A stretch of DNA of 64,000 nucleotides from an uncultured Planctomycetota bacterium (GTDB lineage Bacteria > Planctomycetota > Planctomycetia > Isosphaerales > Isosphaeraceae): contig CAWGMQ010000004.1 in assembly GCA_963823665.1 (NCBI GenBank), positions 160,001 to 224,000 on the forward strand, read 5' to 3'. The notes under the pieces are model-generated. The model was not told where the DNA came from, searched no databases, and saw nothing but the letters and a program-made list of their open reading frames with translations. This document shows positions 39,876 through 56,984 of the stretch, piece after piece. The stretch's first letter is position 1, and each line of letters opens with the position of its first letter. Both the position numbers and the translations under genes were made by a program.

Positions 39876-40598
39876 CAAGCCAAACCCGTCTCCCGTCCCT
39901 GGCGAAGATTCCTGCGCTTCAGCGTGCGGGGGATGATCGTACTTGTGCTGGTGATCGGTGGGTGGCTCGGGTGGATTGTGCGGAGTGCTCGAATCCAGCG
40001 CGAGGCGGTCGCGGCGATTGAGAACGCTGGAGGCCGGGTTGCTTATGACTGGGAGTGGAGCAACGGGAATCATTTTCCAGGAGGAAAACCCTGGGGGCCA
40101 GGATGGCTCGTGGATCTCATCGGACTCGACTACTTCGGGCACGTCACCTTGGTAGTCATCAACTTCTCCCCAAAGGTATCGGTTGCAACGACCGAACAGA
40201 TCGGGCGGCTCACCCGACTCGAGTGTCTGAATCTTACTGGGTCATCCGCTGGCGACGCCGAGCTCGCGCATGTCCAGGCACTGACCAACCTCCGGTTTCT
40301 CCTGCTCGGCGACACCCAGGTCACCGACTCCGGGCTGGTGCATCTAAAGGGGATCGCCAACCTATCCTTGCTTAGCCTCTATCGCACACAAGTCACTGAC
40401 GCAGGGCTGGCCCAACTGAAGGGGCTTACCAACCTGACGGGCCTCAACCTTAACGGCACTCAGGTCACAGACGTAGGGCTCGCGCAACTGAAGGGGCTTA
40501 CCAACCTCAACGTCCTCGCCCTTGATGGCACTCCGGTCACGGATGCAGGGATCTTTGAGCTAAAGCAGACGCCGCGGAGCGTGAGGATCGTCCGTTAA
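39876..40598 (+). CDS. LRR cassette 1: constant leader/TM + N-cap + 5 LRRs (native start lost)
   Basis: QAKPVSRPWRRFLRFSVRG leader, GKPWGPGWLVDLIGLDYFGHV cap, 24-aa LxxLxLxxTxVTDAGLxxL repeats. Confidence 0.8.
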   Translation, partial: QAKPVSRPWRRFLRFSVRGMIVLVLVIGGWLGWIVRSARIQREAVAAIENAGGRVAYDWEWSNGNHFPGGKPWGPGWLVDLIGLDYFGHVTLVVINFSPKVSVATTEQIGRLTRLECLNLTGSSAGDAELAHVQALTNLRFLLLGDTQVTDSGLVHLKGIANLSLLSLYRTQVTDAGLAQLKGLTNLTGLNLNGTQVTDVGLAQLKGLTNLNVLALDGTPVTDAGIFELKQTPRSVRIVR

Positions 40599-40621
40599 TT
40601 TGATGCTCATCCTGCCGGCAG

Positions 40622-40748
40622 GGAACCGTCCCCGTCGCATCGCGAGGAATCGGTCGCGGATCGATGACCCTCCTGGAACGAGCCGCGTGCGGGCCGTTAT
40701 GATAAATCGAGCGAACAGACATCGGTCCTCCGCTCACTACAGGCCGGC
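40622..40748 (+). promoter_or_regulatory. Conserved inter-cassette element A (-35 degenerate, TATGAT at 40698)
   Basis: Homologous to elements at 42675, 43570, 48493, 50197, 55751. Confidence 0.75.
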
Positions 40749-41899
40749 ATGAACGATCAAGCCAACACGGTCCCACGTCCCCGACGAAGATTCCTGCGCT
40801 TCAGCGTTCGGGGGCTGATCGTTCTGGTGCTGGTGATCGGCGGTTGGTCCGGCTGGACTGTGAGGATGCCCGCATTCAGCGCGAGGCGGTGGCGGCGATT
40901 ACGAAAGCCGGAGGCGGAGTTTCGTACTGCTGGGAACGGAAAGACGGCGCAGATATCCGGAGCGGAAAACCTTGGGCGCCGCGGTGGATCGTGGATCGCG
41001 TCGGAGTCGACTACTTCGGTCCCGTTACCAACGCACGTGTGGTCGCCTCCGATGCAACGCTCGCACGGGTTGGACGTCTCACCGAGCTACAGCGTTTGAA
41101 TCTGATTGGTTCTTCCACTAGCGATTCCGGGATGGCACACCTCTCCGGATTGACCAAACTGTCTGTCCTCGACCTGGACGACACTCAGATCACCGATGCC
41201 GGCCTGGCACATCTGAAGGGACTGACTGGCCTCTCCTGCATTGGTGTAGGCGAGACGCAGATCACCGACGCCGGGCTGAGAGGTCTAGAGCCCTTGACCG
41301 AACTCGCGCGGCTCCGCGTCCGCGGGACCAAGATTACCGACACCGGCGTAGGGCATCTGAGGAAATTGACCAAACTTTCCGAACTCGACGTCAGCTACAC
41401 GAAGGTCACCGACGCAGGAATGGCTCATCTGAAGGGGTTGACCAATCTCACGGAACTCAATCTCAGCGGCACTCAGGTCACCGACGCAGGACTTGTCCAT
41501 CTGACCGGGTTGAACAAACTTTCAGACCTGAGCCTCTTTGACGCCGAGATCACCGACGCTGGCCTGGCTCACCTTAGCGGTTTAACTAACCTCAGGAAAC
41601 TCAACCTCGAGGCCACTGGGGTGACGGATCGGGGCTTGGCTCACGTGAACGGGCTCCGCGACCTCTCGAAACTGAACATCAGCTTTACGCATGTCACCGA
41701 CGCGGGATTGGCGCATTTGAAGTGGATGACCAATCTTGAGCGCTTGGACGTCAGCGATACCCGGGTCACCGACGCTGGTCTCGTGCATCTGAAGGGGCTC
41801 AGAAAGCTCTCAGAACTCACTCTTTACGGCACCCGCGTCACCGACGATGGAATAAAACACTTAAAGCAAGCTTTGCCGAGTCTGACGATCACTCGTTGA
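40749..41899 (+). CDS. LRR cassette 2: 11 LRRs (frameshift ~40865)
   Basis: Leader in ORF 40749, cap and 11 repeats in ORF 40844..41899, ALPSLTI C-cap. Confidence 0.85.
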
Positions 41900-42070
41900 T
41901 CCGATGCGCATCTTGCCGGCCTGCATCGCCAGTCTAACTCCTCGACCTTCCATTCGGAGTCTCACCTGGGGGCCGCGCTGGCCTCCAATATGCGAGTCCG
42001 GTGATCATTAGCGTGGGCTGATATACTAACCGAAATGGAGCTACCGACCTACCGCTCGCCGGACGCCGGC

Positions 42071-42655
42071 ATGACCGATCAAGCCAAACCCGTCTCACGC
42101 CCCTGGCGAAGATTCCTGCGCTTCAGCGTGCGGGGACTGATCGTTCTCATGCTTGCAATGGGTGCCGGTCTGGGTTGGCTCGTTCGCGGCGCACGAATCC
42201 AAAGAGAGGCGGTAGCCGCGATCACTAAGGCCGGCGGCACGGTCGTTTATAACTGGAATGAGGATACCTCGCCGTTCAGCCCGGCGGGTAAGCCGTGGGC
42301 GCCGGGCTGGCTCGTCAAATTCATTGGAGTCCACTATTTCGGTCACGTAACGGGCGTCGATTTCTACGACAACGCATCGACCGATGCTGGGCTGGTGCAT
42401 CTAAAGCGGCTAAATAAACTCTCGCGACTGCACCTTGCTGGTACCCAGCTCACCGATGCCGGACTGGTGCACCTGCACGGGCTCACCAATCTTTCCCACC
42501 TCGATCTGAGCTACACCAAGGTCTCGGACGATGGACGGGCGCATCTGAAGCCGTTGAAAAAGCTCTCCCGGCTCGACGTCTTTGGCAATCGAGTCACAGA
42601 CGCTGGAATCAAACAATTGCGGCTGCCTGCACGGAGACCCAGGATCTACTACTGA
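42071..42655 (+). CDS. LRR cassette 3: 3 LRRs
   Basis: MTDQAKPVSRPWRRFLRFSVRG leader; alternative upstream element with GATATACT. Confidence 0.85.
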   Translation: MTDQAKPVSRPWRRFLRFSVRGLIVLMLAMGAGLGWLVRGARIQREAVAAITKAGGTVVYNWNEDTSPFSPAGKPWAPGWLVKFIGVHYFGHVTGVDFYDNASTDAGLVHLKRLNKLSRLHLAGTQLTDAGLVHLHGLTNLSHLDLSYTKVSDDGRAHLKPLKKLSRLDVFGNRVTDAGIKQLRLPARRPRIYY

Positions 42656-42674
42656 GTCGCCGGGAGCTAGCCAC

Positions 42675-42807
42675 CCTGGAATCGTCCCTGTCGCATCGCC
42701 AGGCGGCGAGACGTCGGATCTATTGAGCCTCCTTCGACGACTCGCGTGCAAGCCGTTATGATGAATCGAGCGAACAGACATCGGCCCTCTGCTCACAAGA
42801 GGCTGGC
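42675..42807 (+). promoter_or_regulatory. Conserved inter-cassette element with TCGACG-N17-TATGAT
   Basis: -35 at 42734-42739, -10 at 42757-42762. Confidence 0.75.
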
Positions 42808-43546
42808 ATGAACGATCAAGCCAAATCCGCCTCACGTCCCTGGCGAAGATTCCTGCGCTTCAGCATGCGGGGGATGATCGTCGTTGTGCTGGTGATGGGC
42901 GGCGGGCTGGGATGGCTCGTTCGTCAGCGCCCACATCCAGCGCGACGCTGTGGCGGCGATTCAGCATGCTGGCGGCAACGTCTTATATAGCTGGGAGCGG
43001 AATAATAGAACAGGTACGTCGGGAGGAAAGCCGTGGGCGCCAACTTGGCTCGCGGATCTCATCGGCGTTGACTACTTCGGTCACATCACTTCGGTTTGGT
43101 TCGTTGGGTCCTCGAACACAACCCATTCAGTGCTTGCGCAGGTCGGGTGTCTCACAGGAGCTCACGAGGTGCAATTCAAAGGATGCACCGTTAGCGATGC
43201 CGGGATGGCCCATCTGAGAGGCCTTCGCGGGCTATCTTATCTTGACCTCAGCGGCACTCAAATTACCGACGCCGGGCTGGCCCACTTGAAGGGGTTGACC
43301 AACCTTTCGGGGCTCTTCCTCACGGACACTCACGTTTCCGACGCTGGGTTGGTGCACGTGGAGGGGCTGACCAACCTTCAAATCCTCAGTCTTGCCCACA
43401 GTCAGGTTTCCAATGCCGGTCTGGCGCGTCTGAAGGGGCTAACCAAGCTCAACAAACTCTCGCTCGACGTAAGCCAGGCCACAGACGCTGGTGAACGCGA
43501 GCTCCAGCGGGCTTTGCCGAATCTAAAGGTAAAGGTTTACCCTTGA
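42808..43546 (+). CDS. LRR cassette 4: 5 LRRs (frameshift ~42925)
   Basis: Leader + cap + repeats, ALPNL C-cap. Confidence 0.85.
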
Positions 43547-43569
43547 AATGCTGCCCGTCCAAGCGACAC

Positions 43570-43698: not shown

Positions 43699-44448
43699 AT
43701 GAACGATCAACCCAAACCCGCCTCCCGTCCCTGGCGAAGATTCCTGCGCTTCAGCGTGCGGGGGATGATTGTACTGGTGATCGTGATCGCCGGCTGCCTT
43801 GGATGGATCGTACGTAGCGCCCGCAACCACCGACAGGCCGTCGCGGCAATTATCAAGATGAATGGGGAGGTGGGGTACGTGGACGACTCGCGGACCTCCT
43901 TACAAGCGATGCGTGGCGAGCGTTCTCTCAGGTACCTGATCGGCGACTGGTTGGCTATCAACGACGTTTTCAGCGGCGTCCATGTCCGGCTCACGTTGAA
44001 AGAAGGCATGGACCAGGAACTGGCGCTCGCGCCCGTAGGCGATTTGACAAACCTCCAATCACTGAGTTTTGTGGGCGGCGCCATTCAAGATTCCGCGATC
44101 GAGAAAATCGGGCGGGCGAACAACCTCAAATGGCTCCAAATCCAATCCGCACCGCTCACCCGCGTTGGGTTCCGGCATTTGACGCAGTACAAGAACCTGG
44201 AGCACTTGTTCCTCTACGACATCGACATTCCCGAAGGGGCGTTCGAGCACTTCGGCGCGCTGGCGAATCTGAAAACACTCGAGATGCACCAATGCTGGCG
44301 AGTGGACAAAGGCCTTGCCGAGATGCAAGTACCGCCGCGCCTTGCGACCCTCCGTATCCGTTACGCGCCGCTCTCGGATGCCGGCCTCAAGCACATCGCG
44401 CGGCTGCCGCACCTCACAGAACTTTTCCTGGAAGACGTTCTCGACTGA
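43699..44448 (+). pseudogene. LRR cassette 5: 3'-truncated near-duplicate of 48625..49776
   Basis: Colinear with 48625 copy until GAAGACGTTCTCG, then cut by the repeat array. Confidence 0.85.
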
Positions 44449-45030
44449 ATTCAGCTCGACCTTTGCGACTTCTCGCCTTTGCGTGAGCCCCTTTCTCATC
44501 ACACACTTCAAACACAAATCGCGCCCCTGCTGGTGTGCTCCGCACTGAGTTCACCTTTCCTTTTGCGCCTTTTTCCCCTTCGCGCCTTGCGTGAGCCCCT
44601 CTTTTCTCCCGATCACGCATCCAAGAAAATCACCTTGCCCCGTCGCGCATCGCCGCGACTGAATTCAGCTCGACTTTTGCGACTTCTCGCCTTTGCGTGA
44701 GCCCCTCTCTCATCACACACTTCAAACACAAACCGCGCCCCTGCTGGTGTGCTCCGCACTGAGTTCATCTTTCCGTTTGCGCCTTTTTCCCCTTCGCGCC
44801 TTGCGTGAGCCCCTCTTTTCTCCCGATCACGCACCCAAAAAAATCGCCTTGCACCGTCGCGCATCGCCACGACTGAATTCAGCTCGACCTTTGCGACTTC
44901 GCGCCTTTGCGTGAGCCCCTCTTTTGTTCTCGTCACACACCCCAAAAACAAATCGTGCGCCTTCGCGTGTCCTCCCCATTGACATCGCCTCTCCTTTGCG
45001 CCATGTTCCCCTTCGCGCCTTTGCGTGGAC
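44442..45030 (+). repeat. Pyrimidine-rich repeat array, unit 2, with 214-bp tandem duplication
   Basis: CGACTGAATTCAGCTCGAC starts at 44442, 44656, 44870. Confidence 0.9.
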
Positions 45031-45034
45031 CCCT

Positions 45035-45427
45035 CGGTACACGTCGGCCGAGCTGGCCCGGTTGCTTGCCGTGAAACGTGAGCCGAGTTGCAAGCTGGCG
45101 GTCTCCGTCCCGGCTCCCCCGGACCCGGAGGCCAGGCCGAAGCGCAGGCCGTTGTACGGGCCAATCCCGTCGAGCTGGTCGCCCCCGGCCTCTCGGCTCC
45201 CGGGGAAAACCCTCCAGGTCGGGGCCATCTGTTGGCTCTTGGCGGGTTGGAATCGAACGGCCGCGTTCGAGCTGGCGCTGGAGGATCGGCCCGAGTTCGG
45301 CCTCTCCCGGTTCTCGGCCTCGCGGGGCCTCGATACACTGGAAACGGTTGGATTGGTCTCCAAGGTCCGTCGGCCGGGCCGGTCTCCGATCGTGTTGCTC
45401 CGGGACGCTACGGTGGGAAATTCTTGA
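45035..45427 (+). CDS. Winged-HTH protein, copy 2
   Basis: Homologous to 37848 copy with the same 5' junction GGTACACGTCGGCCGAG. Confidence 0.6.
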   Translation, partial: RYTSAELARLLAVKREPSCKLAVSVPAPPDPEARPKRRPLYGPIPSSWSPPASRLPGKTLQVGAICWLLAGWNRTAAFELALEDRPEFGLSRFSASRGLDTLETVGLVSKVRRPGRSPIVLLRDATVGNS

Positions 45428-45439
45428 CGTCAGAGGCCG

Positions 45440-45808
45440 ATGATGCCGCGAGTTCGATTCCGAGTTCGGACAATCCTGCTCTTCATCGCGGTGGTTGCCG
45501 TCCTACTCGCAATGCCGCGAATCGTCTCCCAGTTGTCGCGCATTCGGCCGTTTTGGCTAGAGTGGGATGGCACGATCCTTTGGTTCGTGGAAGACAGGGT
45601 GACGGGGATAGTATACAGCCACGCGCCCACCGTCGTCTTTCACCATTCAGTTAAGACCGAGGTCCCGCTGCCATCGCCTACAACTCTGCTACGAATTGTT
45701 GCGGCGAGCCTGATCTTGGCATCCGCGTTCGTTTATCGGCGCAAGCTTAAGAACCGTGCGAAGCTCCGAGAGACTGCAACTAACAGCGGTGCTTCAGAAT
45801 CCAATTAA
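45440..45808 (+). CDS. Variable cargo membrane protein 2 (RFRVRTIL leader + TM)
   Basis: Same slot as cargo 1, unrelated body. Confidence 0.65.
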   Translation: MMPRVRFRVRTILLFIAVVAVLLAMPRIVSQLSRIRPFWLEWDGTILWFVEDRVTGIVYSHAPTVVFHHSVKTEVPLPSPTTLLRIVAASLILASAFVYRRKLKNRAKLRETATNSGASESN

Positions 45809-45861
45809 TTGACGGGCAAGCGCAGACCGAAGCGGGAAGGCCGAGAAAGTGTAAGTTAAGA

Positions 45862-46153
45862 ATGGGATGGAAAACCATCAACGGACGCCGGTATTTCTAC
45901 AGGTCGGAGCGAGAGGGAGGCCGAGTCAAAACCACCTATTTTGGGGCCGGTGAGTCGGGCCTGCTGATTCCACTCTTGGAGCGGGAAGAACGGGCCGAGC
46001 TTGAGGAATGTCGGGCCGAGTTCGGCCTCTTCCGTTTCTCGGCCTCCCGTGGCTTGACTATACCGGAGCCGTCCGGTTTGGTCTGCACGGCCCGACCGTC
46101 CGGGACTCTCCCCTGTCGCGAGGATCATTGAAACCACAACGGCGGGCGCTTGA
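45862..46153 (+). pseudogene. MGWKT copy 2 fused at 46011 to 3' fragment of a fourth wHTH copy
   Basis: Switch at TCGGGCCGA microhomology into EFGLFRFSASRGL. Confidence 0.75.
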
Positions 46154-46171
46154 TTGTGCTGGGAGGAAGAT

Positions 46172-46477
46172 TTGGTGCTTTTCCCCCGCTTTCGAATCCA
46201 GTCGATCATGACCGCCATCGCGGCGGTGGCCGTTCTCCTGAGTCTGGTCCACTTCTTGTCGCAACACCCAGTTTTGCTGGGCATTTCTTCTGGATTGCTT
46301 CTCTTGTTCGGGACCAGCGCCTGCATTTTAGTCTGGCCCTTCGCAGTATGGAATTGGTGCCAGCGTTGCTCGAGGTCCGTTCTCATTCCCTTCAAGCCGA
46401 CGACAGGAGGCGAGCATGCGGGTCACCGCGATCTTGCACTTGACGATACCTCTTTTCTGGTACAAACTACCTCCTGA
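46172..46477 (+). CDS. Variable cargo membrane protein 3 (RFRIQSIM leader + TM)
   Basis: GGGAGG RBS; follows wHTH 3' fragment. Confidence 0.6.
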   Translation: MVLFPRFRIQSIMTAIAAVAVLLSLVHFLSQHPVLLGISSGLLLLFGTSACILVWPFAVWNWCQRCSRSVLIPFKPTTGGEHAGHRDLALDDTSFLVQTTS

Positions 46478-46495
46478 TGTGTGCACCTGGAGGTA
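46468..46495. promoter_or_regulatory. Inverted repeat, candidate AbiEi operator
   Basis: TACCTCCTG-N10-CTGGAGGTA directly upstream of abiEi. Confidence 0.5.
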
Positions 46496-46504
46496 ACATG
46501 GACC

Positions 46505-47128
46505 ATGCCAAGTCCGGCCAATCTCTCTGACGATCGGCGACGCCGGGTTGACGCGGCCTTTCGCGAGAGGGGCGGGATAATGCGGATGGCCGAAGCCCTC
46601 CGGGCAGGCGTCCATCGCCGCACGCTGTACGCCCTCCGCGACGCGGGCGTGCTCCAGCAACTCGGCCGCGGGCTCTACCGCCTGGCCGACGCCCCGCCAC
46701 TCTCCCACCCGGACCTCGTCGCGGTCTCGCGACGCGCCCCGAGGGCGATCGTCTGCCTCGTCTCCGCACTCGGTTTTCACGGATTGACCACCCAGGTCGC
46801 ACACGAGGTGTACCTGGCCGTCTCCAGGGACAGCGAGCCGCCCCGCGTCGAATACCCCCCAGTCCGCGTATTCCGGTTCGGCATGCGGGCCTTCAGCGAA
46901 GGGGTCGAGACGCACGACCTGGACGGCGTCCCTGTCCGGATCTACTCACGCGAGAAGACCCTGGCCGACTGTTTCAAATACAGAAACGTGGTTGGGCTCG
47001 ATACCGCGCTCGAGGCGCTACGGCGATATCGCGAAGAGGGCCGGGTCGACGTCGGCGCCATCCTCCGCTACGCCCGCACCTGCCGGGTCGAGAAAGTTAT
47101 TCGCCCGTACCTGGAGGCGATCCTGTGA
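46505..47128 (+). CDS. Type IV TA antitoxin, AbiEi family
   Basis: LGRGLYRL, CLVSALGFHGLTTQ, YSREKTLADCFKYRN motifs. Confidence 0.9.
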   Translation: MPSPANLSDDRRRRVDAAFRERGGIMRMAEALRAGVHRRTLYALRDAGVLQQLGRGLYRLADAPPLSHPDLVAVSRRAPRAIVCLVSALGFHGLTTQVAHEVYLAVSRDSEPPRVEYPPVRVFRFGMRAFSEGVETHDLDGVPVRIYSREKTLADCFKYRNVVGLDTALEALRRYREEGRVDVGAILRYARTCRVEKVIRPYLEAIL

Positions 47129-48036: not shown

Positions 48037-48057
48037 TGCATGGCTGGACTGAGGGGC

Positions 48058-48224
48058 CGTTGGGCGCGGGTCTCCTGACCCCGCCCTCCTCACCAACCGC
48101 AAGCCTAGTGTCCCGACAATCTTCGATTGAGGACCTGTTGGGCGCGGGTCTACTGACCCCGCCCTCGTCACCGACCGCAGGTCTCCAGGCGGCCGACCCG
48201 CCAATCGAAGATTGTCGCAGCAAC
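48058..48224. repeat. Composite REP-like element (GGCGCGGGTCT..TGACCCCGCC..CCGACCGCAGGTCTCC)
   Basis: Two sub-repeats; closely similar block at 55275-55474. Confidence 0.8.
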
Positions 48225-48226
48225 AG

Positions 48227-48624: not shown

Positions 48625-49776
48625 ATGACCGATCAAGCCAAACCCACCACACGTCCCTGGCGAAGATTCCTGCGCTTCAGCGTGCGGGGGCTGATTGTAC
48701 TGGTGATCGTGATCGCCGGCTGCCTTGGATGGATCGTACGTAGCGCCCGCAACCACCGACAGGCCGTCGCGGCAATTATCAAGATGAATGGGGAGGTGGC
48801 GTACATGGACGACTCGCGGACCTTCTTACAAGCGATGCGCGGCGAGCGTTCTCTGAGGTACCTGATCGGCGACTGGTTGGGTATCAACGACGTTTTCAGC
48901 GGCGTCCATGTCCGGCTCACGTTGAAAGAAGGCACGGACCAGGAACTGGCGCTCGCGCGCGTAGGCGATTTGACAAACCTCCAATCACTGAGTTTTGTCG
49001 GCGGCGCCATTCAAGATTCCGCGATCGAGAAAATCGGGCGGGCGAACAACCTCAAATGGCTCCGGATCCAATCCGCACCGCTCACCCGCGTTGGGTTCCG
49101 GCATTTGGCGCAGTACAAGAACCTGGAGTACTTGTTCCTTTACGACATCGAGATTCCCGAAGGGGCGCTCGAGCACTTCGGCGCGCTGGCGAATCTGAAA
49201 ACACTCGAGATGCACCAATGCTGGCGAGTGGACAAAGGCTTTGCCGAGATGCAAGCACCGCCGCGCCTCGCGACCCTCCGTATCCGTTACGCGCCGCTCT
49301 CGGATGCCGGCCTCAAGCACATCGCGCGGCTGCCGCACCTCACAGAACTTTCCCTGGAAGACGTTCTCGTGACCGACGCCGGAATGGCAAGCCTCCAGGG
49401 CCTGTCCCAGCTCACCGAGCTTCGCCTGAAAAGCGATGATTTGACCGACGCCGCCTTGGCGAGCCTGGCCAGCCTGCGCACCATCCGCCGCCTTTCGATC
49501 GACGTACCAAGAATCACAGACGCAGGTGCCGAGCATCTGGCCCAGCTCACCAACCTCGAGTCGTTAAACTTCACTCGAGAAAGATTGACCGACGCAGGCA
49601 TCATGAAGTTAAAGCCGCTCAAGAAACTAGCCTTGCTGAACATCGGCAGGACAGGAATTACTGAGGACGGCGCCAGCGAACTCCAGAAGGAGTTGCCCAA
49701 GCTCGTGGAGATCACCAGAGGAACGAGAGCTGCCTCAGTTCCAAGACTTCCGCGCGCCAAAACCGCCGGCCGCTAG
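48625..49776 (+). CDS. LRR cassette 6: 10 divergent LRRs, intact
   Basis: Constant leader, different N-cap, 24-aa periodicity, ELPKL C-cap. Confidence 0.88.
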   Translation: MTDQAKPTTRPWRRFLRFSVRGLIVLVIVIAGCLGWIVRSARNHRQAVAAIIKMNGEVAYMDDSRTFLQAMRGERSLRYLIGDWLGINDVFSGVHVRLTLKEGTDQELALARVGDLTNLQSLSFVGGAIQDSAIEKIGRANNLKWLRIQSAPLTRVGFRHLAQYKNLEYLFLYDIEIPEGALEHFGALANLKTLEMHQCWRVDKGFAEMQAPPRLATLRIRYAPLSDAGLKHIARLPHLTELSLEDVLVTDAGMASLQGLSQLTELRLKSDDLTDAALASLASLRTIRRLSIDVPRITDAGAEHLAQLTNLESLNFTRERLTDAGIMKLKPLKKLALLNIGRTGITEDGASELQKELPKLVEITRGTRAASVPRLPRAKTAGR

Positions 49777-49792: not shown

Positions 49793-49905
49793 CGTGTAGC
49801 AGGCACACTCCGTGTGCCGTCCGCCGAACTTGCCGGTGGGTGGCACTGGCCAGCTCAGTGCTCCAATTCTCGGGCGATTCGCTGTCCCGGAATCGCGAAA
49901 AGCCA
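49793..49905 (+). repeat. ~110-bp REP-like element (TGTAGCAGGCACACTCCGTGTGCC...)
   Basis: Second copy at 52983-53092. Confidence 0.8.
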
Positions 49906-49907
49906 TC

Positions 49908-50038
49908 CTGAGCGCACGCAAGTTACCGACGGGGGGCTGCTTCAACTGCGGAGTCTAACAAAGCTGGAAGAACTTGACCTCACCGTTACGGAAGTTGTTG
50001 ATTTCAAACTGTCAGGCTCTCTGGTGACGGGAATGTAA
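49908..50038 (+). pseudogene. Orphan LRR module (ERTQVTDGGLLQLRSLTKLEELDL)
   Basis: One 24-aa LRR without leader. Confidence 0.65.
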
Positions 50039-50274: not shown

Positions 50275-50765
50275 ATGAACGATCGAGCGAAACCCGCCGC
50301 CCGTCCCTGGCGAAGATTCCTGCGATTCAGCGTGCGGGGAATGATTTTTCTTGTGGTGGTGATCGGTGGATGGCTTGGCTGGATCGTGCGAAGCGCGCGG
50401 ATTCAGCGCGATGCCGTGGACGCGATCACCAAAGCCGATGGGCAGGTCACATATGACTGGCACTGGACCGGGACCGACCGGAAGGTTGCTCCGACGGGAA
50501 GACCTTGGGCGCCCAGGTGGGTGGTGGATCTCGTTGGAGTTGACTATTTCGGAAACATCAGATGCGTCTTGTTCTACTCACCGTCCAAAGCAACCGGAGC
50601 AACGATCGCACAGGTTGGGCGCCTATCCCAACTACAGGAACTGCATCTCGATGAGTCGTCGCTAGACGACGCCAGCATGGTGCATTTGAAGGGGCTGACC
50701 GAACTCTACTGGTTCAGTCTCAGTGACACTCCGGTCACCGGCGCCGGGCTGGCGCAATTGACGCA
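50275..50765 (+). pseudogene. LRR cassette 7: leader + cap + 2 LRRs, C-cap missing
   Basis: Homology ends after GAGLAQL; ORF then reads through the conserved tail motif (50819-50846) and repeat array. Confidence 0.75.
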
Positions 50766-50927
50766 TATTCACAATTCGCTAGCTTGCTGTCACTGCCTTG
50801 CCCCCCATCGGCGAACGGCCTGGAATCGTCTCCGTCGCATCGCCAGGGTGGACGCGCCCAACTTCCACGCCTCGGTGCAAGCGCGTTCTATGAGCCGACG
50901 TGGCCTCCGGCCAGGCCAATCGCACGC

Positions 50928-51072
50928 AGCCTTACCTTTGCGGCTTCGCGTGAGCCCCTCTTTTGTTCTCCTTGCACGCCCCAAAAACAAATCGTGCGTC
51001 TGCGCGTGTCCTCCCCGTTGAGTTTGCCACTCCCTTTGCGCCTTGTTCCCATTCGCGCCTTTGCGTGAGCCC
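50928..51072 (+). repeat. Pyrimidine-rich repeat array, unit 3
   Basis: Similar to 44885-45030. Confidence 0.8.
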
Positions 51073-51074
51073 CT

Positions 51075-51467
51075 CGGTACACGTCGGCCGAGCTGGCCCG
51101 GTTGCTAACCGTGGAACGGGAGCCGGATTGAAAGCTGGCGATCTCCGTCCCGGCTCTCCCGGACCCGGAGGCCAGGCCGAAGCGCCGGCCGTTGTACGGG
51201 CCGATCCATTGGAGCTGGTGGCTCCCGGCCTCTCTGCTCCCCGGGAAGTCCCTCCAGGTCGGGGCCGTCTGTTGGCTCCTGGTGGGTTGGAATCGATCGG
51301 CGGAGTTCGAGCTGGCGTTGCATGATCGGGCGGAGTTCGGCCTCTCCCGGTTCTCGGCCTGCCGGGGCTTCGATACACTGGAAAACGCCGGGTTGCTCTC
51401 GACCATTGGACGGCCGGGCCGGTGTCCCAAGGTGATGATCGTGGATGCTCACCCAGGAAATGGTTGA
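51075..51467 (+). pseudogene. Winged-HTH copy 3 with in-frame TGA
   Basis: EREPD*KLA where copies 1 and 2 read REP(G/S)CKLA. Confidence 0.7.
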
Positions 51468-51479
51468 CGGGGTACGGCG

Positions 51480-51836
51480 GTGAGGGCATTCCGCTTCCGA
51501 ATCCGGGCGATCATGATCGTGATCGCTACCCTCGCTCTCGCACTTGGCGCGGTTCGATTAGCCCTTCACTACCAGATTGCGAGATTGTCGGTTGAAATCG
51601 GCGAACCCAATTTTGTGATTCTGCATTTGTGGTCGGGTGTCCATCTTACGCAGCGCGGCACGGAGGCAGTCTCGATACAGTTTTCGCTTCAGGAAATGCT
51701 CGTTTGCGTCGGCCTATTTGCCTGCTGCTGCGCGGTACTCTTGCGCCAGTCCAGAACACGCGGCGAAAGGCAAAGCGCTGACTCTGGAGTCATGCCCACA
51801 CGCAGTGTTCCGATAAGGAAATCCCGGGCGCCTTGA
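51480..51836 (+). CDS. Variable cargo membrane protein 4 (RFRIRAIM leader + TM)
   Basis: Same slot between wHTH and MGWKT. Confidence 0.65.
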   Translation: MRAFRFRIRAIMIVIATLALALGAVRLALHYQIARLSVEIGEPNFVILHLWSGVHLTQRGTEAVSIQFSLQEMLVCVGLFACCCAVLLRQSRTRGERQSADSGVMPTRSVPIRKSRAP

Positions 51837-51867
51837 AGCGGAGCTGCCGAGAGAGTGTAGGTTAAAA

Positions 51868-52125
51868 ATGGGATGGAAAACCATCAACGGCCGTCGCTAT
51901 TGCTACAAGTCCGCTACCGCGGCAAACGGCTGATTTCGTCGGGGGATGACGTTGCGTGTTCGCTTCCGAATCCGGACGATCATGCTCGTGGTCGCGGCGA
52001 CGGCGGTCATGTTGGGTCTATGACTACAAGTCGGAGCCCGAGGGAGGCCGAGTCTATACCGCCTTCTTCGGCGCGGGTGAGTCGGGCCCGTTGATTTCAC
52101 TCCTGGGGCGGGAGCATCGGGCTTG
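51868..52125 (+). pseudogene. MGWKT copy 3 interrupted by a ~120-bp insert
   Basis: Insert flanked by direct repeat CTACAAGTC; encodes MTLRVRFRIRTIMLVVAATAVMLGL* (51946-52023). Confidence 0.75.
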
Positions 52126-52139
52126 GAGCCACTACGCGC

Positions 52140-52496
52140 TCAACCCTTCTTACCTGCCTGCCGCTTTTGTTTGGTAGCAGGTGCGGCCTTCGCGGATCGA
52201 GTCGGCGCTACTTTCTTCGACGGAGCTTTCTTGACCGAAAGCGCAGCAGTTTTCTTCTTCGCCGCCACCTTCTTGGTTTTGGAAGCCTGCGCCATCGCCT
52301 TCGGGGCAGGTTTCGACGTCTTGCCCTGCACGGCTTTGGAAGAAGCCTTCGCGCCTTTGGGTGTGCCGCGTGTCGGCATCATATCCCCCACCGCGTGCAT
52401 GGCTTTGGACCCAGCGTTGATCACGACTTCTGCCGCCGACGTCGCCGCATCGCCAATCCGCTCAAGCACGCCTTTGGATTTCTTTTTGCTCAGCAT
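52140..52496 (-). CDS. Lys/Ala-rich histone H1-like protein
   Basis: Very basic K/A/S-rich low-complexity tail. Confidence 0.6.
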   Translation of the reverse strand: MLSKKKSKGVLERIGDAATSAAEVVINAGSKAMHAVGDMMPTRGTPKGAKASSKAVQGKTSKPAPKAMAQASKTKKVAAKKKTAALSVKKAPSKKVAPTRSAKAAPATKQKRQAGKKG

Positions 52497-52736
52497 CAAA
52501 CGCTCCCTGCGTGGTTAGGCAGTGTGTCAACTGTCCCTTCTTCAAGCGACACACAGCATATTCTAGGCTTCGGTCCCCGCGCTTCCTATTCCTTTCGATG
52601 GAATTGCGGGACGATGAGCGACCCCGCCCGGCGGCCGGAGCGACTCCAACCCGCCGCGCCGACACGTGTGTCACTCCGCGATTACAATCCTTGATGTGAG
52701 CGCGACGAACCGTTGACGTCCCTGGGAACGCGGCTG

Positions 52737-53779: not shown

Positions 53780-54103
53780 ATGTGCAGACAACCCAATCCC
53801 GTCTCCCGTCCCAGGCGAAGATTCCTGCGCTTCAGCGTCCGGGGCCTGATTGTTCTTGTTCTTGTGATCGGTGCTTGGCTCGGCTGGATGGTCCGCAGTG
53901 CACGTATTCAACGGGAAGCGGTGGCGGCGATCGAAAATGCGGGAGGCGAAGTCCTCTATGACCGCGAGTGGACCGACGCCGGGCTGGTGCACCTGAGCAA
54001 GCTGCCCAGCCTTTCGGAACTCTACATCGACGACGCTCAGATCACCGACGCCGGAGTGAAAGAACTCCAGCAAGCTTTGCCACGCCTGACGATCGAACGC
54101 TAA
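53780..54103 (+). CDS. LRR cassette 8: minimal version, 1 LRR + C-cap
   Basis: In-frame join YDREW|TDAGLVHL removes N-cap and most repeats. Confidence 0.75.
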   Translation: MCRQPNPVSRPRRRFLRFSVRGLIVLVLVIGAWLGWMVRSARIQREAVAAIENAGGEVLYDREWTDAGLVHLSKLPSLSELYIDDAQITDAGVKELQQALPRLTIER

Positions 54104-54267
54104 TTGGATGCCCATCCAACCGGCCAGCAAGCATCGTTGTCGCATCGCCACGCGTCGGCTCACCGATCCATCGAGATCCCCCCAGATCGCGTCTGAGAGC
54201 GTGTCTGTGAATCGAACGTGCGGCACGATCCAATGACCGTTGAGGAATTGGGCGCGACGATTGATCG

Positions 54268-54303
54268 CTCCCTCTCCCTCCGGGAGAGGGCCGGGGTGAG
54301 GGT
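54268..54303. repeat. CCCTCTCCC...GGGAGAGGG...GGGTGAGGG REP-like hairpin
   Basis: Palindromic; degenerate copy at ~36635-36668. Confidence 0.7.
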
Positions 54304-54397
54304 CCTTCCGCATGCGACCGCAATTCGCAGACACGCTCTGAGCGGATATACTGAGCCCACCGAAGTAACTTCGACCGTCTGCTCGCCAAAAGCCAGC

Positions 54398-54514
54398 ATC
54401 GCCGATCAAGCCAAACCCACCACACGTCCCTGGCGAACATTCCTGCGCTTCAGCGTGCGGGGGATAATTGTTATTGTGCTCGTGATCGCCCGGCCGGGGG
54501 GGTGTAGTTCTTAG
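54398..54514 (+). pseudogene. LRR cassette 9: leader only (ATG mutated to ATC)
   Basis: IADQAKPTTRPWRTFLRFSVRGIIVIVLVIA then diverges. Confidence 0.75.
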
Positions 54515-54584
54515 CTGACAAACAGTTCGTAAACCGCGGCCAGATTGGATTCCAGTAACCAGGTACGCATATAACACATAAAGC

Positions 54585-55058
54585 ATGATGATGCGCCGCC
54601 CACGTTTGCGGCTTACGATCGCGGGGATCATGGGGATCGTCGCGTGTACTGCCCTCGTTCTGGGGTGCCTCGTCGAGGCAGGTCGGATCAGGCGCACACA
54701 GGCATTCTATCTTCGTGAATCCGCAAAATTTGCCCAGCTCGAGAGCCGCGAAATCCAGAACCAGTCTCTCTATTTGAAGGCCGCACTGCTGGAGAAGAAT
54801 CTCATTGAACGTATGCGAGAAAGAGACGCCGAACGACAGGCGGCCATCCGAGATCACTTTTATGCCCCGATGAAGCGGATCGCTCCAGACACCGAGCGCT
54901 ACAAAATAAACTTCGAGAGGGGCAGGAAATATCTTACTCACTTGGACGAGTCACGAATCAAGGCGAAGCGGTATTCCGAACTGAGCCGCCGGTACAAAAG
55001 GGCCGGTACCTGCCTCTGGCTGCCCTTTGGACCAAACCCCTTGAATCGCGGTGACTGA
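54585..55058 (+). CDS. Membrane-anchored coiled-coil protein with RLRLTIAGIM leader
   Basis: Basic leader + TM, C-terminal KRY...RYKRA...W.P..P.P motif. Confidence 0.65.
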   Translation: MMMRRPRLRLTIAGIMGIVACTALVLGCLVEAGRIRRTQAFYLRESAKFAQLESREIQNQSLYLKAALLEKNLIERMRERDAERQAAIRDHFYAPMKRIAPDTERYKINFERGRKYLTHLDESRIKAKRYSELSRRYKRAGTCLWLPFGPNPLNRGD

Positions 55059-55100
55059 CGGAGCGAAAAGACATCGTGCAGTCGCTCGCCAGAGGCCGGC

Positions 55101-55730
55101 ATGACCGATCAAGCGAGATCCACCACCCGTCCCTGGCGAACATTCCTGCGCTTCAGCGTCCGCGGGATGATCGTTCTTGTGCTGGTGATCGGTGCCGGGC
55201 TCGGCTGGGTGGTCCGGGTGGTCCGTACCGCTCAGATTCAACGTGAGGCAGTGGCGGAGAACACGCGAGCGGGGGATCACCGACCTCCTCACCAACCGCA
55301 GGTCTAGCATCCCGACGATCTTCGATTGACGGCTTGCTGGGCGCGGGTCTCATGACGCCGCCCTCCTCACCGACCGCAGGTCTCCAGGCGGCCGTCCCGG
55401 CAATCCAAGATTGTCGCAGCACTTGTTGGGCGCGGGTTTCATGACCCCGCCCCCCTCACCGACCGCAGGTCTCCAGAAGGAATGGTGCATCTGAGGGGAA
55501 TGACCAAACTACGCTCCCTCGATCTCAGCACCACACAGGTCTCCGGTCCCGGACTGGTGCATCTGCAACGGCTCAACTCCCTGAAGAGCCTTCGGCTTTG
55601 GGGCACTCAGTTATCCGACGAATCGCTGGTTTATCTGAAGGGCTTGGCCTTCGTCTCAGAACTCGACGTCAATGGCACACACCTCAGCAGTGCAGGTTGG
55701 GAAGAGCTGAGTCGGTGGCGCAATCATTAA
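55101..55730 (+). pseudogene. LRR cassette 10: middle replaced by REP-like block; about 3 LRRs remain
   Basis: Leader 55101-55256, repeats 55275-55474, LRRs 55482-55730. Confidence 0.75.
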
Positions 55731-55750
55731 CTTGAAGCCCAACAATCCGG

Positions 55751-55888
55751 CCTGGAATCGTCCCTGTCGCATCGCCAGCCGTCGGCGTCGGGACGTCAGA
55801 TCATCGACCCTCCTTCGACGAGCCGCGTGCGAGCCGTTATGATGAACCGAGCGAATAGAGATCGGCACTCCATTCACAAGAGGCCGGC
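55751..55888 (+). promoter_or_regulatory. Conserved inter-cassette element with TCGACG-N17-TATGAT
   Basis: -35 at 55815-55820, -10 at 55838-55843. Confidence 0.75.
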
Positions 55889-56842
55889 ATGACCGATCAA
55901 GCCAAACCCGTCTCCCGCCCCCGGCGAAGAGTTCTGCGCTTCAGCATGCGGGGGATGATGGTACTCGTGCTGGCGATTGGAGGCTGGCTCGGCTGGTTCG
56001 TGCGGAGCGCTCGCATTCAGCGCGAGGCCGTGGCGGCGATTCAGAAGGGCGGCGGCGAAGTCCACTTTCAGTGGGAGTGGAAGAACGGGACCGTCGTGCC
56101 GGGAGGAAAGCCTTGGGCGCCTGAACAGCTCGTGAAACTACTCGGCGTCGACTATTTCGGTCACATCGCCCACGTGTCGTTCGCCACGAGAGCACAGCTT
56201 GCGAAGCCAACGAGGGACTTGCTCGCACAGCTCGGGGAAATACAACGCCGATCGGCGGAATTGGATGACGTGCGCTATTCGATGATGGAGGCTGAATTCT
56301 CTCACGCCGACGATCTATATCAAAGGCTGATTCTCTCGGGCGAGCTCACGCCCAAGCCACTGATGCCGCTCTTGAAGGGTCAGAGCAAGCTAGCCCATCT
56401 CGATCTTCGCGACAACGACCTGATCTTCGAAGGCTTGGCTCAAATGGAAGAGCTGACCAGCCTGACGACGCTCGACCTTGGCGGCACGGGGATCACGGAT
56501 TCCCAACTGGTGCACCTGAAGAAATTGAGACAGCTCTCAGAGCTTCATCTGGACTCTGTCAACATCTCTGATGCCGGGCTAGCGAATCTGGCGGGACTGG
56601 CCCGAATGTCCCACCTCGACCTCGAGAAGACAGGGGTTACCGACTCCGGTCTGGTTCATTTGGGCCGGCTGACGAAGCTTAGAAAGCTCAGCCTCGCATT
56701 CACTCAGGTCACCGATCGAGGATTGGTACACCTCAAGGAATTGACAAGTCTTTTGCATATCGACCTCAGTTCCACGGGTGTCACGGATGAGGGTGTGAAG
56801 GAGCTGAGGCTCGCCTTGCCGAACGCGACGATCGTGCGCTGA
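55889..56842 (+). CDS. LRR cassette 11: 6 LRRs plus helical insertion, intact
   Basis: Leader, cap, non-LRR insert, repeats, ALPNATIVR C-cap. Confidence 0.88.
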   Translation: MTDQAKPVSRPRRRVLRFSMRGMMVLVLAIGGWLGWFVRSARIQREAVAAIQKGGGEVHFQWEWKNGTVVPGGKPWAPEQLVKLLGVDYFGHIAHVSFATRAQLAKPTRDLLAQLGEIQRRSAELDDVRYSMMEAEFSHADDLYQRLILSGELTPKPLMPLLKGQSKLAHLDLRDNDLIFEGLAQMEELTSLTTLDLGGTGITDSQLVHLKKLRQLSELHLDSVNISDAGLANLAGLARMSHLDLEKTGVTDSGLVHLGRLTKLRKLSLAFTQVTDRGLVHLKELTSLLHIDLSSTGVTDEGVKELRLALPNATIVR

Positions 56843-56984
56843 CTTCTTGCTCACGCAATCGCCCTGGAATCGTCTCTGTCGCATCTCCACGCTGGAGCCG
56901 TCAAACTCCCGGCCGGCGATTCAATCGCATTCCGTCAGCCGTTCAGCCCGCCCCCTCCCCGAAGCGTGCAGCTACTCATATACA

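What the first reader, a model, noticed from the sequence alone, without database searches (positions are those of the whole stretch)
39876..56889. Variable LRR receptor-like cassette array: constant leader, 1-11 variable LRR modules
Seen: 11 co-oriented copies of a DNA-conserved leader (M(T/N)DQAKP..RPWRRFLRFSVRG + TM + RSARIQREAVAAI), usually a GKPWAP.W....GVDYFG cap, then 24-aa LRRs numbering 5, 11, 3, 5, truncated, 10, 2, 1, 0, about 3 and 6, mostly closed by an (A/E)LP.L.I-type cap. Leader-only and LRR-only fragments lie between them (37248, 49908, 54398). The TDAGLxHL framework is conserved while x positions of LxxLxLxx vary. Known: those positions form the concave ligand face, and jawless-vertebrate VLRs are diversified by LRR-module assembly. 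Inference: a membrane-anchored recognition repertoire diversified by recombination between 72-nt repeats. I know of no described system like this but cannot check the literature here.
Basis: partly seen in the sequence, partly recalled or inferred. Interest (0 to 1): 0.9.

Follow-up and report, generated by a model that had tools for sequence, protein, structure and literature searches.

The report
Decaying cluster of membrane-anchored LRR paralogues
This is a partly broken tandem cluster from a very large planctomycete family of membrane-tethered leucine-rich-repeat proteins; the copies are old, diverged paralogues, with no sign of a programmed receptor-shuffling system.

Summary
Eleven co-oriented copies of one leader lie at 39.8-56.9 kb, followed by 0-11 LRR modules of 72 nt.

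- **What they are.** The genes belong to a family with 73-76 leader matches in this 16.5 Mb planctomycete genome and 56 in its congener. Hundreds more occur in metagenomes under generic LRR or "internalin A" names.
- **Independent genes.** Many copies carry their own promoter-like site, and each has its own leader.
- **Old modules.** LRR modules are about 50% identical in DNA. Only 5 module pairs among 359 modules reach 85%.
- **No excess change on the concave face.** In 8 orthologue pairs these residues give dN/dS 0.30.
- **Old paralogues.** In a tree, copies from the two species interleave completely, and the window copies do not group together.
- **Decay.** Only about 2-4 of the 11 window copies look intact. 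Others are truncated at repeated elements or frameshifted, though the assembly itself seems prone to indel errors.

Array content differs strongly between the two species despite 85-92% identical flanks. I read this as birth-and-death turnover. The ligands and function are unknown.

The parts
39876..40598 (+). c1: leader + cap + 5 LRR. The canonical ATG is replaced (AAC TAC CGG) and the ORF runs on upstream to the ATG at 39687. The C-cap is atypical (ELKQTPRSVRIVR).
40749..41899 (+). c2: leader, a 1-nt frame break at about 40866, then cap + 11 LRR + canonical C-cap. Pseudogene or assembly indel.
42071..42655 (+). c3: leader + cap + 3 LRR, with an aberrant C-terminal cap (QLRLPARRPRIYY).
42808..43546 (+). 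c4: leader, a frame break just after the membrane helix (about 42920-42950), then cap + 4-5 LRR + C-cap.
43699..44448 (+). c5: truncated copy of the c6 type. It matches c6 over 885 nt at 94.5% and breaks at 44443, where the 214-nt tandem repeats begin.
48625..49776 (+). c6: intact 383-aa member with a divergent cap region and about 10 irregular LRRs. No counterpart in the congener (best 35%).
50275..50790 (+). c7: leader + cap + 2 LRR, then loss of LRR sequence ahead of the third copy of the repeated element.
53786..54103 (+). c8: 105-aa minimal form. Leader and the start of the cap are joined in frame to 1 LRR + C-cap.
54398..54514 (+). c9: leader-only remnant with ATC in place of ATG. Its upstream region and leader are 84% identical to a place in the congener that holds a 261-aa ORF.
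55101..55730 (+). c10: leader (55101-55307), two 59-nt REP-like repeats (55329-55476), then a leaderless piece of 3 LRRs (55482-55730).
55889..56842 (+). c11: intact 317-aa member. Leader, membrane helix, cap, a helical insert, 5-6 LRR and canonical C-cap.
37240..37292 (+). LRR C-terminal fragment (…TRVTDARIKQLRLPAPRRTIY*) upstream of the first repeated element.
49905..49990 (+). Leaderless LRR fragment.
37575..39630 (+). Repeated element, copy 1: a wHTH-like ORF, a small membrane ORF and two hypothetical ORFs.
44442..46400 (+). Repeated element, copy 2. It starts with three 214-nt tandem units and abuts truncated c5.
50916..52122 (+). Repeated element, copy 3. It follows truncated c7.
42734..42762 (+). 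Example of the promoter-like site TCGACG-17-TATGAT, about 45 nt upstream of a leader ATG. The same site precedes c5, c6, c7 and c11, and a TATACT variant precedes c9.

Best explanation
The region is a tandem cluster of separately promoted paralogues of a planctomycete-wide family of type-II membrane-anchored LRR proteins.

Each product has:
- a short basic cytoplasmic tail (consensus M(T/N)DQAKPxSRPWRRFLRFSVRG);
- one membrane helix that runs on as a juxtamembrane helix (RSARIQREAVAAI);
- a small beta-rich cap (GGxVxYDWEW…GKPWAPxWLVDxxGVDYFGHVT);
- a solenoid of 24-residue GALA-like CC-type LRRs;
- a C-terminal cap (TDAGxxELxxALPxLxIxR).

From the charge distribution I infer that the LRR domain faces the periplasm and acts as a protein-binding surface tethered to the cytoplasmic membrane. 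The ligand is unknown.

Shown:
- The family is old and large, and its size rises with genome size.
- It evolves by birth and death, through gene and segmental duplication, occasional in-gene gain or loss of a repeat, truncation at repeated elements, and loss.
- This array is a partly decayed stretch of the family.

Inferred: topology, periplasmic location and a binding role.
For: **Family size**
- 73 leader matches in the genome's own assembly, or 76 with leader+cap.
- 56 in the 16.1 Mb congener, 18 and 13 in two 10.8 Mb relatives, and 0-6 in the other 26 relatives searched, nearly all of 5-8.5 Mb.
- 873 homologues at E<=1e-3 among 8000 scored candidates. All 13 sequences I read carry the same leader and caps.
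- The leader alone finds 531 proteins. In the 120 listed rows it is joined only to LRR Pfam families or to none.

**Structure**
- AlphaFold model of c11: mean pLDDT 82.6, helix 12-53, beta cap, regular strand-helix repeats.
- Best Foldseek matches are the Chlorobium Roco LRR and internalins. PDB sequence matches are the same, plus FBXL2 and GALA.

**Independent genes**
- A conserved TATGAT/TATACT hexamer sits about 50-60 nt upstream in all window copies but c1, and in many of the dispersed copies.
- 6 of the 8 promoter-like sites in 39.5-57.2 kb precede leaders, with 8 found against 3.6 +/- 1.4 expected.

**Old, diverged modules**
- nt identity is 0.52 within genes and 0.50 between genes. Only 5 pairs reach 0.85 among 359 modules.

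**Selection**
- 8 orthologue pairs with the congener give dS 0.32-0.45.
- dN/dS is 0.14 for framework positions, 0.30 for concave-face positions and 0.33 for the N-domain.

**Ancient paralogy**
- Genome labels interleave in the N-domain tree, with 29 changes against a shuffled mean of 29.0.
- All 9 well-supported forks are 1:1 cross-species pairs, and the 4 window rows do not cluster.

**Turnover and decay**
- Flanks and anchor genes are 84-92% nt identical to the congener, but LRR genes only 66-79%, and that mostly in leaders.
- c5 is a 94.5% duplicate of c6 cut at a repeat, with dN/dS 0.87.
- c9 is a remnant of a gene that is a 261-aa ORF in the congener.
Against: - Function is not shown. 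There is no expression data, since no RNA run holds the stretch, no ligand, and the topology rests only on charge counting.
- The calls that c2 and c4 are broken rest on single frameshifts. The only bacterial-type aspS in the assembly also carries a 1-nt indel, so they may be assembly errors.
- The congener sample used for orthologues and the tree holds 31 of about 56 copies. That assembly is 84% complete, so 'no orthologue' for c1, c3 and c7 is provisional. For c6 and c11 the whole assembly was searched.
- Averaged dN/dS below 1 does not exclude positive selection at a few sites.
- The tree is a quick one on 92 columns, with 49 of 83 inner branches unresolved.
- The first 22 codons and the 5' UTR of the window copies are much more alike at synonymous sites than the rest (0.84 against 0.35-0.54 same-codon fraction). 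Simple old paralogy does not explain this.
Confidence: 0.75

Rival explanations
1. A programmed diversification system like lamprey VLRs or bacterial silent-cassette antigenic variation. LRR modules or whole bodies would be copied between array members to build new receptors behind a constant leader.
For: - A constant leader with a variable repeat number, and leader-only and LRR-only fragments.
- The 5' UTR and codons 1-22 are unusually alike among window copies, with a same-codon fraction of 0.84 against 0.35-0.54 further on. nt identity peaks at 0.91 at +30 to +60.
- Exact shared tracts of up to 48 nt lie in the leader.
Against: - Modules are about 50% identical. Only 5 pairs reach 85% among 359 modules, and one of these is the c5/c6 duplicate.
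- No long shared tract lies inside LRRs.
- All copies have their own leader, and all but c1 a conserved -10-like hexamer upstream.
- Paralogues predate the split of the two species, and several have 1:1 orthologues at 72-86% identity.
- The ORFs I scanned showed no recombinase, reverse transcriptase or deaminase in or beside the array. One DDE transposase lies in the array upstream of the window.
Confidence: 0.03
2. A polyimmunity locus: an array of Imm-LRR-type immunity proteins that neutralise periplasm-acting polymorphic toxins of competitors.
For: - LRR proteins are a named class of immunity proteins found in heterogeneous polyimmunity loci (PMC3482391, passages read).
- Tandem arrays with fragments and fast turnover fit that picture.
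- A toxin-antitoxin pair (AbiEi/AbiEii) sits inside the array.
Against: - Pfam scans of 21 neighbouring ORFs in the window and 20 ORFs around the adjacent arrays showed no polymorphic toxin, Rhs, CDI or T6SS gene.
- The neighbours are housekeeping genes and the usual planctomycete signalling families.
- In PMC3482391 the phyla listed for Imm-LRR do not include planctomycetes.
- Many members are dispersed singletons with conserved orthologues.
- No PADLOC hit for the three LRR proteins scanned.
Confidence: 0.07
3. Surface or secreted adhesin/effector proteins of the internalin or GALA kind, used on eukaryotic or bacterial partners.
For: - Automatic names such as 'internalin A'.
- PDB sequence matches to internalin A, FBXL2 and GALA proteins.
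- The CC-type LRRs of GALA effectors (PMC2244805).
Against: - NCBIfam internalin and Xop models score 16-33 bits against cut-offs of 500-1600.
- There is no F-box, inter-repeat domain, LPXTG or GW module.
- The N-terminus looks like an uncleaved signal anchor: the residue at -3 of the only A-containing site is Arg (read from the sequence).
- A soil planctomycete with about 75 copies argues against a host-specific effector set.
Confidence: 0.07
4. Mostly dead DNA: the whole array is a pseudogene graveyard with no present function.
For: - Only c6 and c11 are cleanly intact. c5, c7, c9 and c10 are structurally broken, and c2 and c4 are frameshifted.
- c5/c6 dN/dS is 0.87.
Against: - c6 and c11 are intact. 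c11 has 78-86% identical full-length relatives in metagenomes.
- The single frameshifts may be assembly errors.
- Promoter-like sites are kept.
- The family at large is under purifying selection.
Confidence: 0.08

Closest known systems
GALA-like (GL) LRRs of the CC-LRR subfamily (Kajava et al. 2008, PMC2244805; passages read)
   Same: - 24-residue repeats with a V/I-T-D motif.
- Thr where CC-LRRs have Cys.
- Conserved Leu positions.
- The paper lists Gemmata sp. Wa1-1 and Rhodopirellula baltica proteins among the bearers.
- The module consensus here is TDAGLxHLKGLTxLxxLxLxxTxV.
   Different: In the passages I read, the paper treats the repeat type only. It does not describe the conserved leader, membrane anchor or cap, the size of the family, or clustered arrays. 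No F-box is present here.
Plant R-gene / receptor-like protein clusters (birth-and-death multigene families; recalled, no call)
   Same: - Tandem clusters of LRR genes with variable repeat number.
- Truncated members and different content between close relatives.
- Variation concentrated at the x positions of LxxLxLxx.
   Different: - There is no sign here of positive selection on those positions (dN/dS 0.30).
- No kinase or NB-ARC domain.
- A bacterial single-pass anchor, and no known role in immunity.
Lamprey/hagfish variable lymphocyte receptors (recalled, no call)
   Same: An LRR solenoid with capping units, a variable module number, and a constant N-terminal part.
   Different: - VLRs are assembled somatically into one incomplete gene from leaderless flanking cassettes.
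- Here every copy is a stand-alone gene with its own leader and cap, many with a promoter-like site.
- The modules are too diverged to exchange.
Imm-LRR immunity proteins in polyimmunity loci (Zhang et al. 2012, PMC3482391; passages read)
   Same: LRR proteins in tandem, heterogeneous arrays that include fragments.
   Different: No toxin genes nearby. The members here are membrane-anchored and many are dispersed, and planctomycetes are not listed for Imm-LRR in that paper.
Listeria internalins and Chlorobium Roco LRR domains (best PDB matches)
   Same: The LRR fold. phmmer E-values are 7.5e-33 (5il7) and 1e-25 (2omy). Foldseek gives E 1.7e-9 with TM 0.45 on the query.
   Different: Repeat length and caps differ and there are no accessory domains. 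NCBIfam internalin models score far below their cut-offs.

Membership tests
LRR superfamily (Pfam LRR_4 / LRR_6 / LRR_8) | Repeats matching the LRR profiles above Pfam's gathering score | tested here: met
   LRR_4 reaches 33-85 bits (cut-off 27) in 6 of the 10 pieces scanned. c5 (26.9) and the c10 fragment (25.1) fall just below it, though the c10 fragment passes LRR_6 and LRR_1. c7 and c8 have too few repeats to score.
LRR superfamily | Curved solenoid of strand-turn-helix units | tested here: met
   in the c11 model, residues 190-317 have pLDDT 94-98 with alternating strand and helix; 439 PDB chains at E<=1e-3, and the listed ones are LRR domains.
GL-LRR / CC-LRR subfamily (PMC2244805) | 24-residue unit with a VTD-type motif, Thr at the Cys/Asn position, and conserved apolar positions | tested here: met
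   consensus over 359 modules: T 0.59 at position 22, V/I 0.78 at 24, T/S 0.81 at 1, D 0.85 at 2, L 0.78-0.95 at 5, 8, 11, 14, 17 and 19. Compared with the paper's description. No profile from the paper was run.
VLR-type assembled receptor system | One incomplete expressed gene, plus flanking cassettes that lack a leader and a promoter | tested here: not met
   all 11 window copies carry the leader and all but c1 a conserved -10-like hexamer about 50-60 nt upstream. 6 copies pass the two-hexamer promoter scan.
VLR-type assembled receptor system | Short shared homology between donor and acceptor modules, and mosaic modules | tested here: not met
   5 pairs reach 85% among 359 modules; outside c5/c6, nearly all of the longest shared exact tracts (11-48 nt) lie in the leader, and the few exceptions are 11-17 nt.
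VLR-type assembled receptor system | AID/APOBEC-like deaminase or another dedicated enzyme | not tested
   No such domain appeared among the ORFs scanned. The genome was not searched for one.
Class 1 internalins (NCBIfam NF033186/8/9) | Score above the curated cut-off | tested here: not met
   16-30 bits against cut-offs of 1050-1600.
Polyimmunity locus (Imm-LRR) | Linkage to polymorphic toxin genes or their secretion systems | tested here: not met
   none among the 41 neighbouring ORFs scanned with Pfam. Only this region and the adjacent arrays were examined.
Diversity-generating retroelement target | A reverse transcriptase with a template/variable repeat pair | not tested
   No RT appeared among the scanned ORFs, and no near-identical repeat pair inside LRR genes. 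No dedicated search was made.

The most novel reading that the evidence does not exclude
The family could be a fast-turnover repertoire of periplasm-facing recognition proteins that grows with genome size (about 75 copies at 16.5 Mb). The sharply bounded, nucleotide-conserved 5' segment (promoter, 5' UTR and first 22 codons) would then serve as a shared recombination or regulatory handle. That handle would let different LRR bodies be swapped behind, or co-regulated from, the same control region. This would be a bacterial counterpart of receptor-gene clusters in plants and animals.
Probability: 0.12. Interest if true: 0.7.

Novelty: new member of a known kind. Interest (0 to 1): 0.3.

Why it matters
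The array itself is ordinary gene-family turnover.

The family deserves a note, for four reasons:
- It is among the larger paralogue sets in two of the largest bacterial genomes (16 Mb).
- It is spread through Gemmata- and Isosphaera-like planctomycetes.
- Its leader and cap matched no Pfam or NCBIfam model.
- I found no paper on it in the library searched.

A membrane-tethered periplasmic LRR set might bear on how planctomycetes handle macromolecules in their enlarged periplasm. That link is a guess.

Tried and rejected
- **RNA structure in the conserved 5' region.** RNAalifold on 11 copies gave 22 pairs, none with a compensatory change. Rejected.
- **Nucleotide-level conservation of the leader across the whole family.** The same-codon fraction is 0.40-0.50 in all four segments for 53 members, so the 'DNA-conserved leader' is a feature of one subfamily only. 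A first version of this count had an indexing error and is discarded.
- **Close orthologues with DNA from public collections.** Scans of genome contigs and metagenome contigs with c11 returned only 31-61% identical relatives, so dN/dS on c11 itself could not be done.
- **Sequencing runs.** No RNA holder is listed. Three soil-metagenome runs hold 0.06-0.13 of the sampled words. When laid, they gave only short contigs at low depth. The 'joints' have sides of 20-38 nt and look like repeat or other-organism artefacts. None of the listed pieces covers the c2 or c4 frameshift sites. This says nothing on rearrangement or on the frameshifts.
- **Earlier scan notes.** Nothing by sequence. Two notes on another piece of this genome concern ECF sigma/kinase clusters.
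- **Repeated-element ORFs.** PHROGs, Pfam, NCBIfam and PADLOC found no family. The protein atlas gave only unnamed clusters and a weak MarR/HTH lead.
- **Tat signal.** The motif RRFLRF does not fit S/T-R-R-x-F-L-K (consensus recalled, no call) when aligned on the RR. Not claimed.
- **Careful tree search.** It did not finish in 300 s, so the quick tree is reported.

Full report
**Observation**

The window is G000:C4:160001-224000 of a 16.46 Mb assembly in 12 contigs, 91.9% complete. Between 39.8 and 56.9 kb, the repeat finder reports 11 co-oriented copies of a 156-nt unit, 67-100% identical to the reference copy. It also reports 25 copies of a unit with 72-nt spacing.

It consists of a basic tail M(T/N)DQAKPxSRPWRRFLRFSVRG, a hydrophobic stretch, and RSARIQREAVAAI. 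Usually a GKPWAPxW…GVDYFG cap follows, then 24-residue repeats and an ALPxLxIxR-type end.

An HMM of leader+cap finds all 11 copies. The fragments at about 37248, 49905 and 54398 are real. Pfam sees only LRR families and nothing for the leader or cap. NCBIfam gives only sub-threshold internalin and Xop matches.

**What the genes are**

The leader occurs 73 times in this genome, or 76 times with the cap. Some copies sit in other clusters, at C4:113-158 kb on the opposite strand, C10:1437-1442 kb, C6:1295-1326 kb and C3:1092-1095 kb. Others are singletons.

Copy number across relatives:

| Genome | Size | Leader+cap matches |
|---|---|---|
| This genome | 16.5 Mb | 76 |
| Congener G001 | 16.1 Mb | 56 |
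| Two relatives | 10.8 Mb each | 18 and 13 |
| 26 other relatives | nearly all 5-8.5 Mb | 0-6 |

- A protein search with c11 gave 873 hits at E<=1e-3 among 8000 scored candidates. Their source names were 'internalin A', 'Leucine-rich repeat (LRR) protein' and 'leucine-rich repeat domain-containing protein [Isosphaeraceae bacterium]'.
- All 13 hit sequences I read have the same tail, helix, cap and C-terminal end.
- The leader alone finds 531 longer proteins. In the 120 listed rows the only Pfam families are LRR ones, and many short proteins have none.
- The module consensus TDAGLxHLKGLTxLxxLxLxxTxV fits the 24-residue GALA-like CC-LRR type that Kajava et al. reported from Gemmata and Rhodopirellula (PMC2244805, passages).

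An AlphaFold model of c11 has mean pLDDT 82.6. It shows one long helix (residues 12-53), a small beta cap, a poorly predicted insert and a confident LRR solenoid. Its best structural matches are the Chlorobium Roco LRR domain and internalins, in line with the sequence matches to the PDB.

The tail carries about five net positive charges against about two after the helix. The only Ala-containing site after the helix has Arg at -3. I therefore infer an uncleaved signal anchor with the LRR domain in the periplasm. This is an inference and was not tested.

**Are they cassettes or genes?**

All window copies but c1, and many of the dispersed ones, have a TATGAT, TATACT or similar hexamer about 50-60 nt before the start codon. 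The consensus scan finds 8 promoter-like sites in 39.5-57.2 kb, against 3.6 +/- 1.4 in shuffles. Six of them are TCGACG-17-TATGAT or TTCGCA-17-TATACT just upstream of c4, c5, c6, c7, c9 and c11. So these look like stand-alone transcription units, which does not fit silent donor cassettes.

**Tests of recombination and mosaicism**

- Across 359 ungapped modules from 66 family ORFs, mean nt identity is 0.52 within a gene, 0.54 for neighbouring modules and 0.50 between genes.
- The median best match of a module is 0.67, and only 5 pairs reach 0.85. One of those is the c5/c6 duplicate and one is an in-gene tandem pair.
- In c1 two neighbouring modules are 82% alike, which is a sign of occasional in-gene duplication.
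- Outside c5/c6, nearly all of the longest exact tracts shared by window copies (11-48 nt) lie in the first 70 nt (the leader); the few exceptions are 11-17 nt.
- The repeats are thus too diverged to be exchanging now.

**Selection**

I found eight orthologue pairs between this genome and the sampled part of its congener, at 72-86% protein identity. Pooled Nei-Gojobori counts are:

| Site class | dN/dS |
|---|---|
| LRR framework positions | 0.14 |
| Six concave-face x positions | 0.30 |
| Other LRR positions | 0.39 |
| N-domain | 0.33 |

dS is 0.32-0.45 throughout. The concave face is less constrained than the framework but is not under pervasive positive selection. Single sites cannot be judged from these data.

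**Age and turnover**

A quick maximum-likelihood tree of 86 N-domains (55 from this genome, 31 from the congener) is poorly resolved, with 49 of 83 inner branches open. Even so, the genome labels interleave as in shuffles (29 changes, shuffled mean 29.0). All 9 well-supported forks are 1:1 cross-species pairs. The four window rows do not cluster. The paralogues are therefore older than the two species, and the window array is not a recent local burst.

The syntenic locus of the congener keeps several anchors in order:

| Anchor | nt identity |
|---|---|
| Left flank | 85-88% |
| AbiEi | 88.8% |
| Lys-rich gene | 92% |
| Uma2 gene | 90.7% |

The LRR genes between these anchors match only at 66-79%, mostly in leaders.

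- c6 has no counterpart in the whole congener assembly (best 35%).
- The N-domain of c11 reaches only 68% there.
- c1, c3 and c7 reach 53-58% full-length identity in the sampled copies.
- This fits differential loss and gain among old paralogues.

**Decay of this array**

- c5 is a 94.5% copy of c6 over 885 nt. It is cut at 44443, where three 214-nt tandem units begin. c5 against c6 gives dN/dS 0.87, from 7 synonymous and 19 non-synonymous differences.
- c7 loses its LRRs ahead of another copy of the same repeated element.
- c10 has two REP-like 59-nt repeats between its leader and a leaderless LRR piece.
- c9 is a leader stub whose counterpart in the congener is a 261-aa ORF.
- c2 and c4 each have one frame break.

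The single frame breaks need caution. The only bacterial-type aspS of the assembly is split by a 1-nt indel, and AbiEii is also in two pieces. Single frameshifts may therefore be assembly errors. The soil-metagenome contigs that could be laid did not cover those sites.

**Layout**

Three copies of a 1.2-2 kb element lie at 37575-39630, 44442-46400 and 50916-52122. They divide the array into three blocks, which looks like segmental duplication with breakpoints inside LRR genes. The wHTH-like ORF of the element has 8 matches in the genome, and all 8 lie beside LRR-family genes: 3 in this window, 4 at C7:495-504 kb and 1 at C10:1436 kb. Whether it is a linked regulator or just part of the duplicating unit is open.

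**An unexplained detail**

Among the four window copies with a complete N-domain, the same codon is used for the same residue in 84% of cases in codons 1-22, but in only 35-54% further on. In 11 copies of the 'MNDQAKP' subfamily, three of which lie on other contigs, nt identity peaks at 0.91 at +30 to +60 and falls to 0.45 by +180. Family-wide the effect is absent, at 0.40-0.50 everywhere. No RNA structure is supported. Local gene conversion, or constraint on the promoter, 5' UTR and start region, could explain it. This is the only hint of mosaicism I found.

**Rivals**

| Reading | Main evidence against |
|---|---|
| VLR-like assembly | Own leaders and promoter-like sites; diverged modules; old paralogues |
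| Polyimmunity (Imm-LRR, PMC3482391, passages) | No toxin genes among 41 neighbouring ORFs scanned; no PADLOC hit |
| Internalin/GALA-type effectors | Scores far below cut-offs; no accessory domains |

**Literature**

Five searches of the held library found nothing on this family: 'Planctomycetes + leucine-rich repeat + paralog', 'Gemmataceae + leucine-rich', 'Gemmata/LRR/gene family expansion', a six-term genus search, and 'Paralogization + Planctomycetes'. PMC8567305 (passages) discusses planctomycete paralogue expansion but has no occurrence of 'LRR' or 'leucine'. Subscription papers are not covered by the library.

**Verdict**

The reading as a recombination-diversified receptor array is not supported. 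The region is a partly decayed tandem cluster from a large, old, uncharacterised planctomycete family of membrane-anchored GL-type LRR proteins that evolves by birth and death.

Noticed in passing
window 21840-23605 (+): The only bacterial-type aspS of the assembly is split into two ORFs by a 1-nt indel near 22960. AbiEii (47125-47349 and 47407-48036) is split too. Together with 91.9% completeness for a 12-contig assembly, this points to indel errors in the assembly, so single frameshifts here are weak evidence of pseudogenes.
   Followed up: partly
window 37575-39630, 44442-46400, 50916-52122; also G000:C7:495-504 kb and C10:1436 kb: A repeated element carries a 135-aa wHTH-like ORF (weak MarR/HTH lead only), a small membrane ORF, and ORFs starting MGWKTINGRRYYYKSEREGGRVKTTYFG. 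All 8 genome matches of the wHTH-like ORF lie beside LRR-family genes. It could be a linked regulator, or a mobile or duplicating unit.
   Followed up: partly
window 44442-45035: Three tandem units of 214 nt (89-95% alike), made of shorter C/T-rich repeats that also occur at 37575, 50916 and 56980. They sit exactly at the breakpoint of truncated c5.
   Followed up: no
window 48052-48188 and 55329-55476: Four copies of a 59-nt REP-like repeat (81-88% alike). Two of them separate the leader of c10 from its LRR piece.
   Followed up: no
window 46481-48036 (+): An AbiEi/AbiEii type IV toxin-antitoxin (abortive infection) pair sits inside the array. AbiEi is 88.8% nt identical at the syntenic place of the congener.
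   Followed up: partly
window 38336-38758, 45440-45808, 51480-51836, 54585-55058 (+): Small ORFs with N-termini of the type R-x-R-F-R-I/L-R followed by a membrane helix, recalling the basic tail plus helix of the LRR leader. No family was found.
   Followed up: no
window 52140-52499 (-): A 119-aa Lys/Ala-rich, histone-H1-like ORF, 92% nt identical in the congener, is one of the best conserved anchors inside the array.
   Followed up: no
window 58400-61648 versus G001:C5:2570-2580 kb: The right flank (SDR gene and beyond) lies inverted and about 43 kb to the other side of the locus in the congener. The congener's second LRR sub-array (C5:2662-2666 kb) is orthologous to this genome's upstream minus-strand array (C4:130-150 kb). 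So an inversion has a breakpoint at the array.
   Followed up: partly
window 3613-5031 (+): A lone ORF with a T4-type terminase large-subunit N-domain (E 6e-25) sits among housekeeping genes, next to a class-3 lipase ORF. It may be a phage remnant.
   Followed up: no
L001-L002 (G000:C4:110-150 kb): The neighbouring minus-strand LRR array is interleaved with a Ser/Thr kinase-WD40 protein, TPR proteins, an ECF sigma fusion, an nSTAND NTPase fused to an FGE-sulfatase domain, and a DDE transposase.
   Followed up: no
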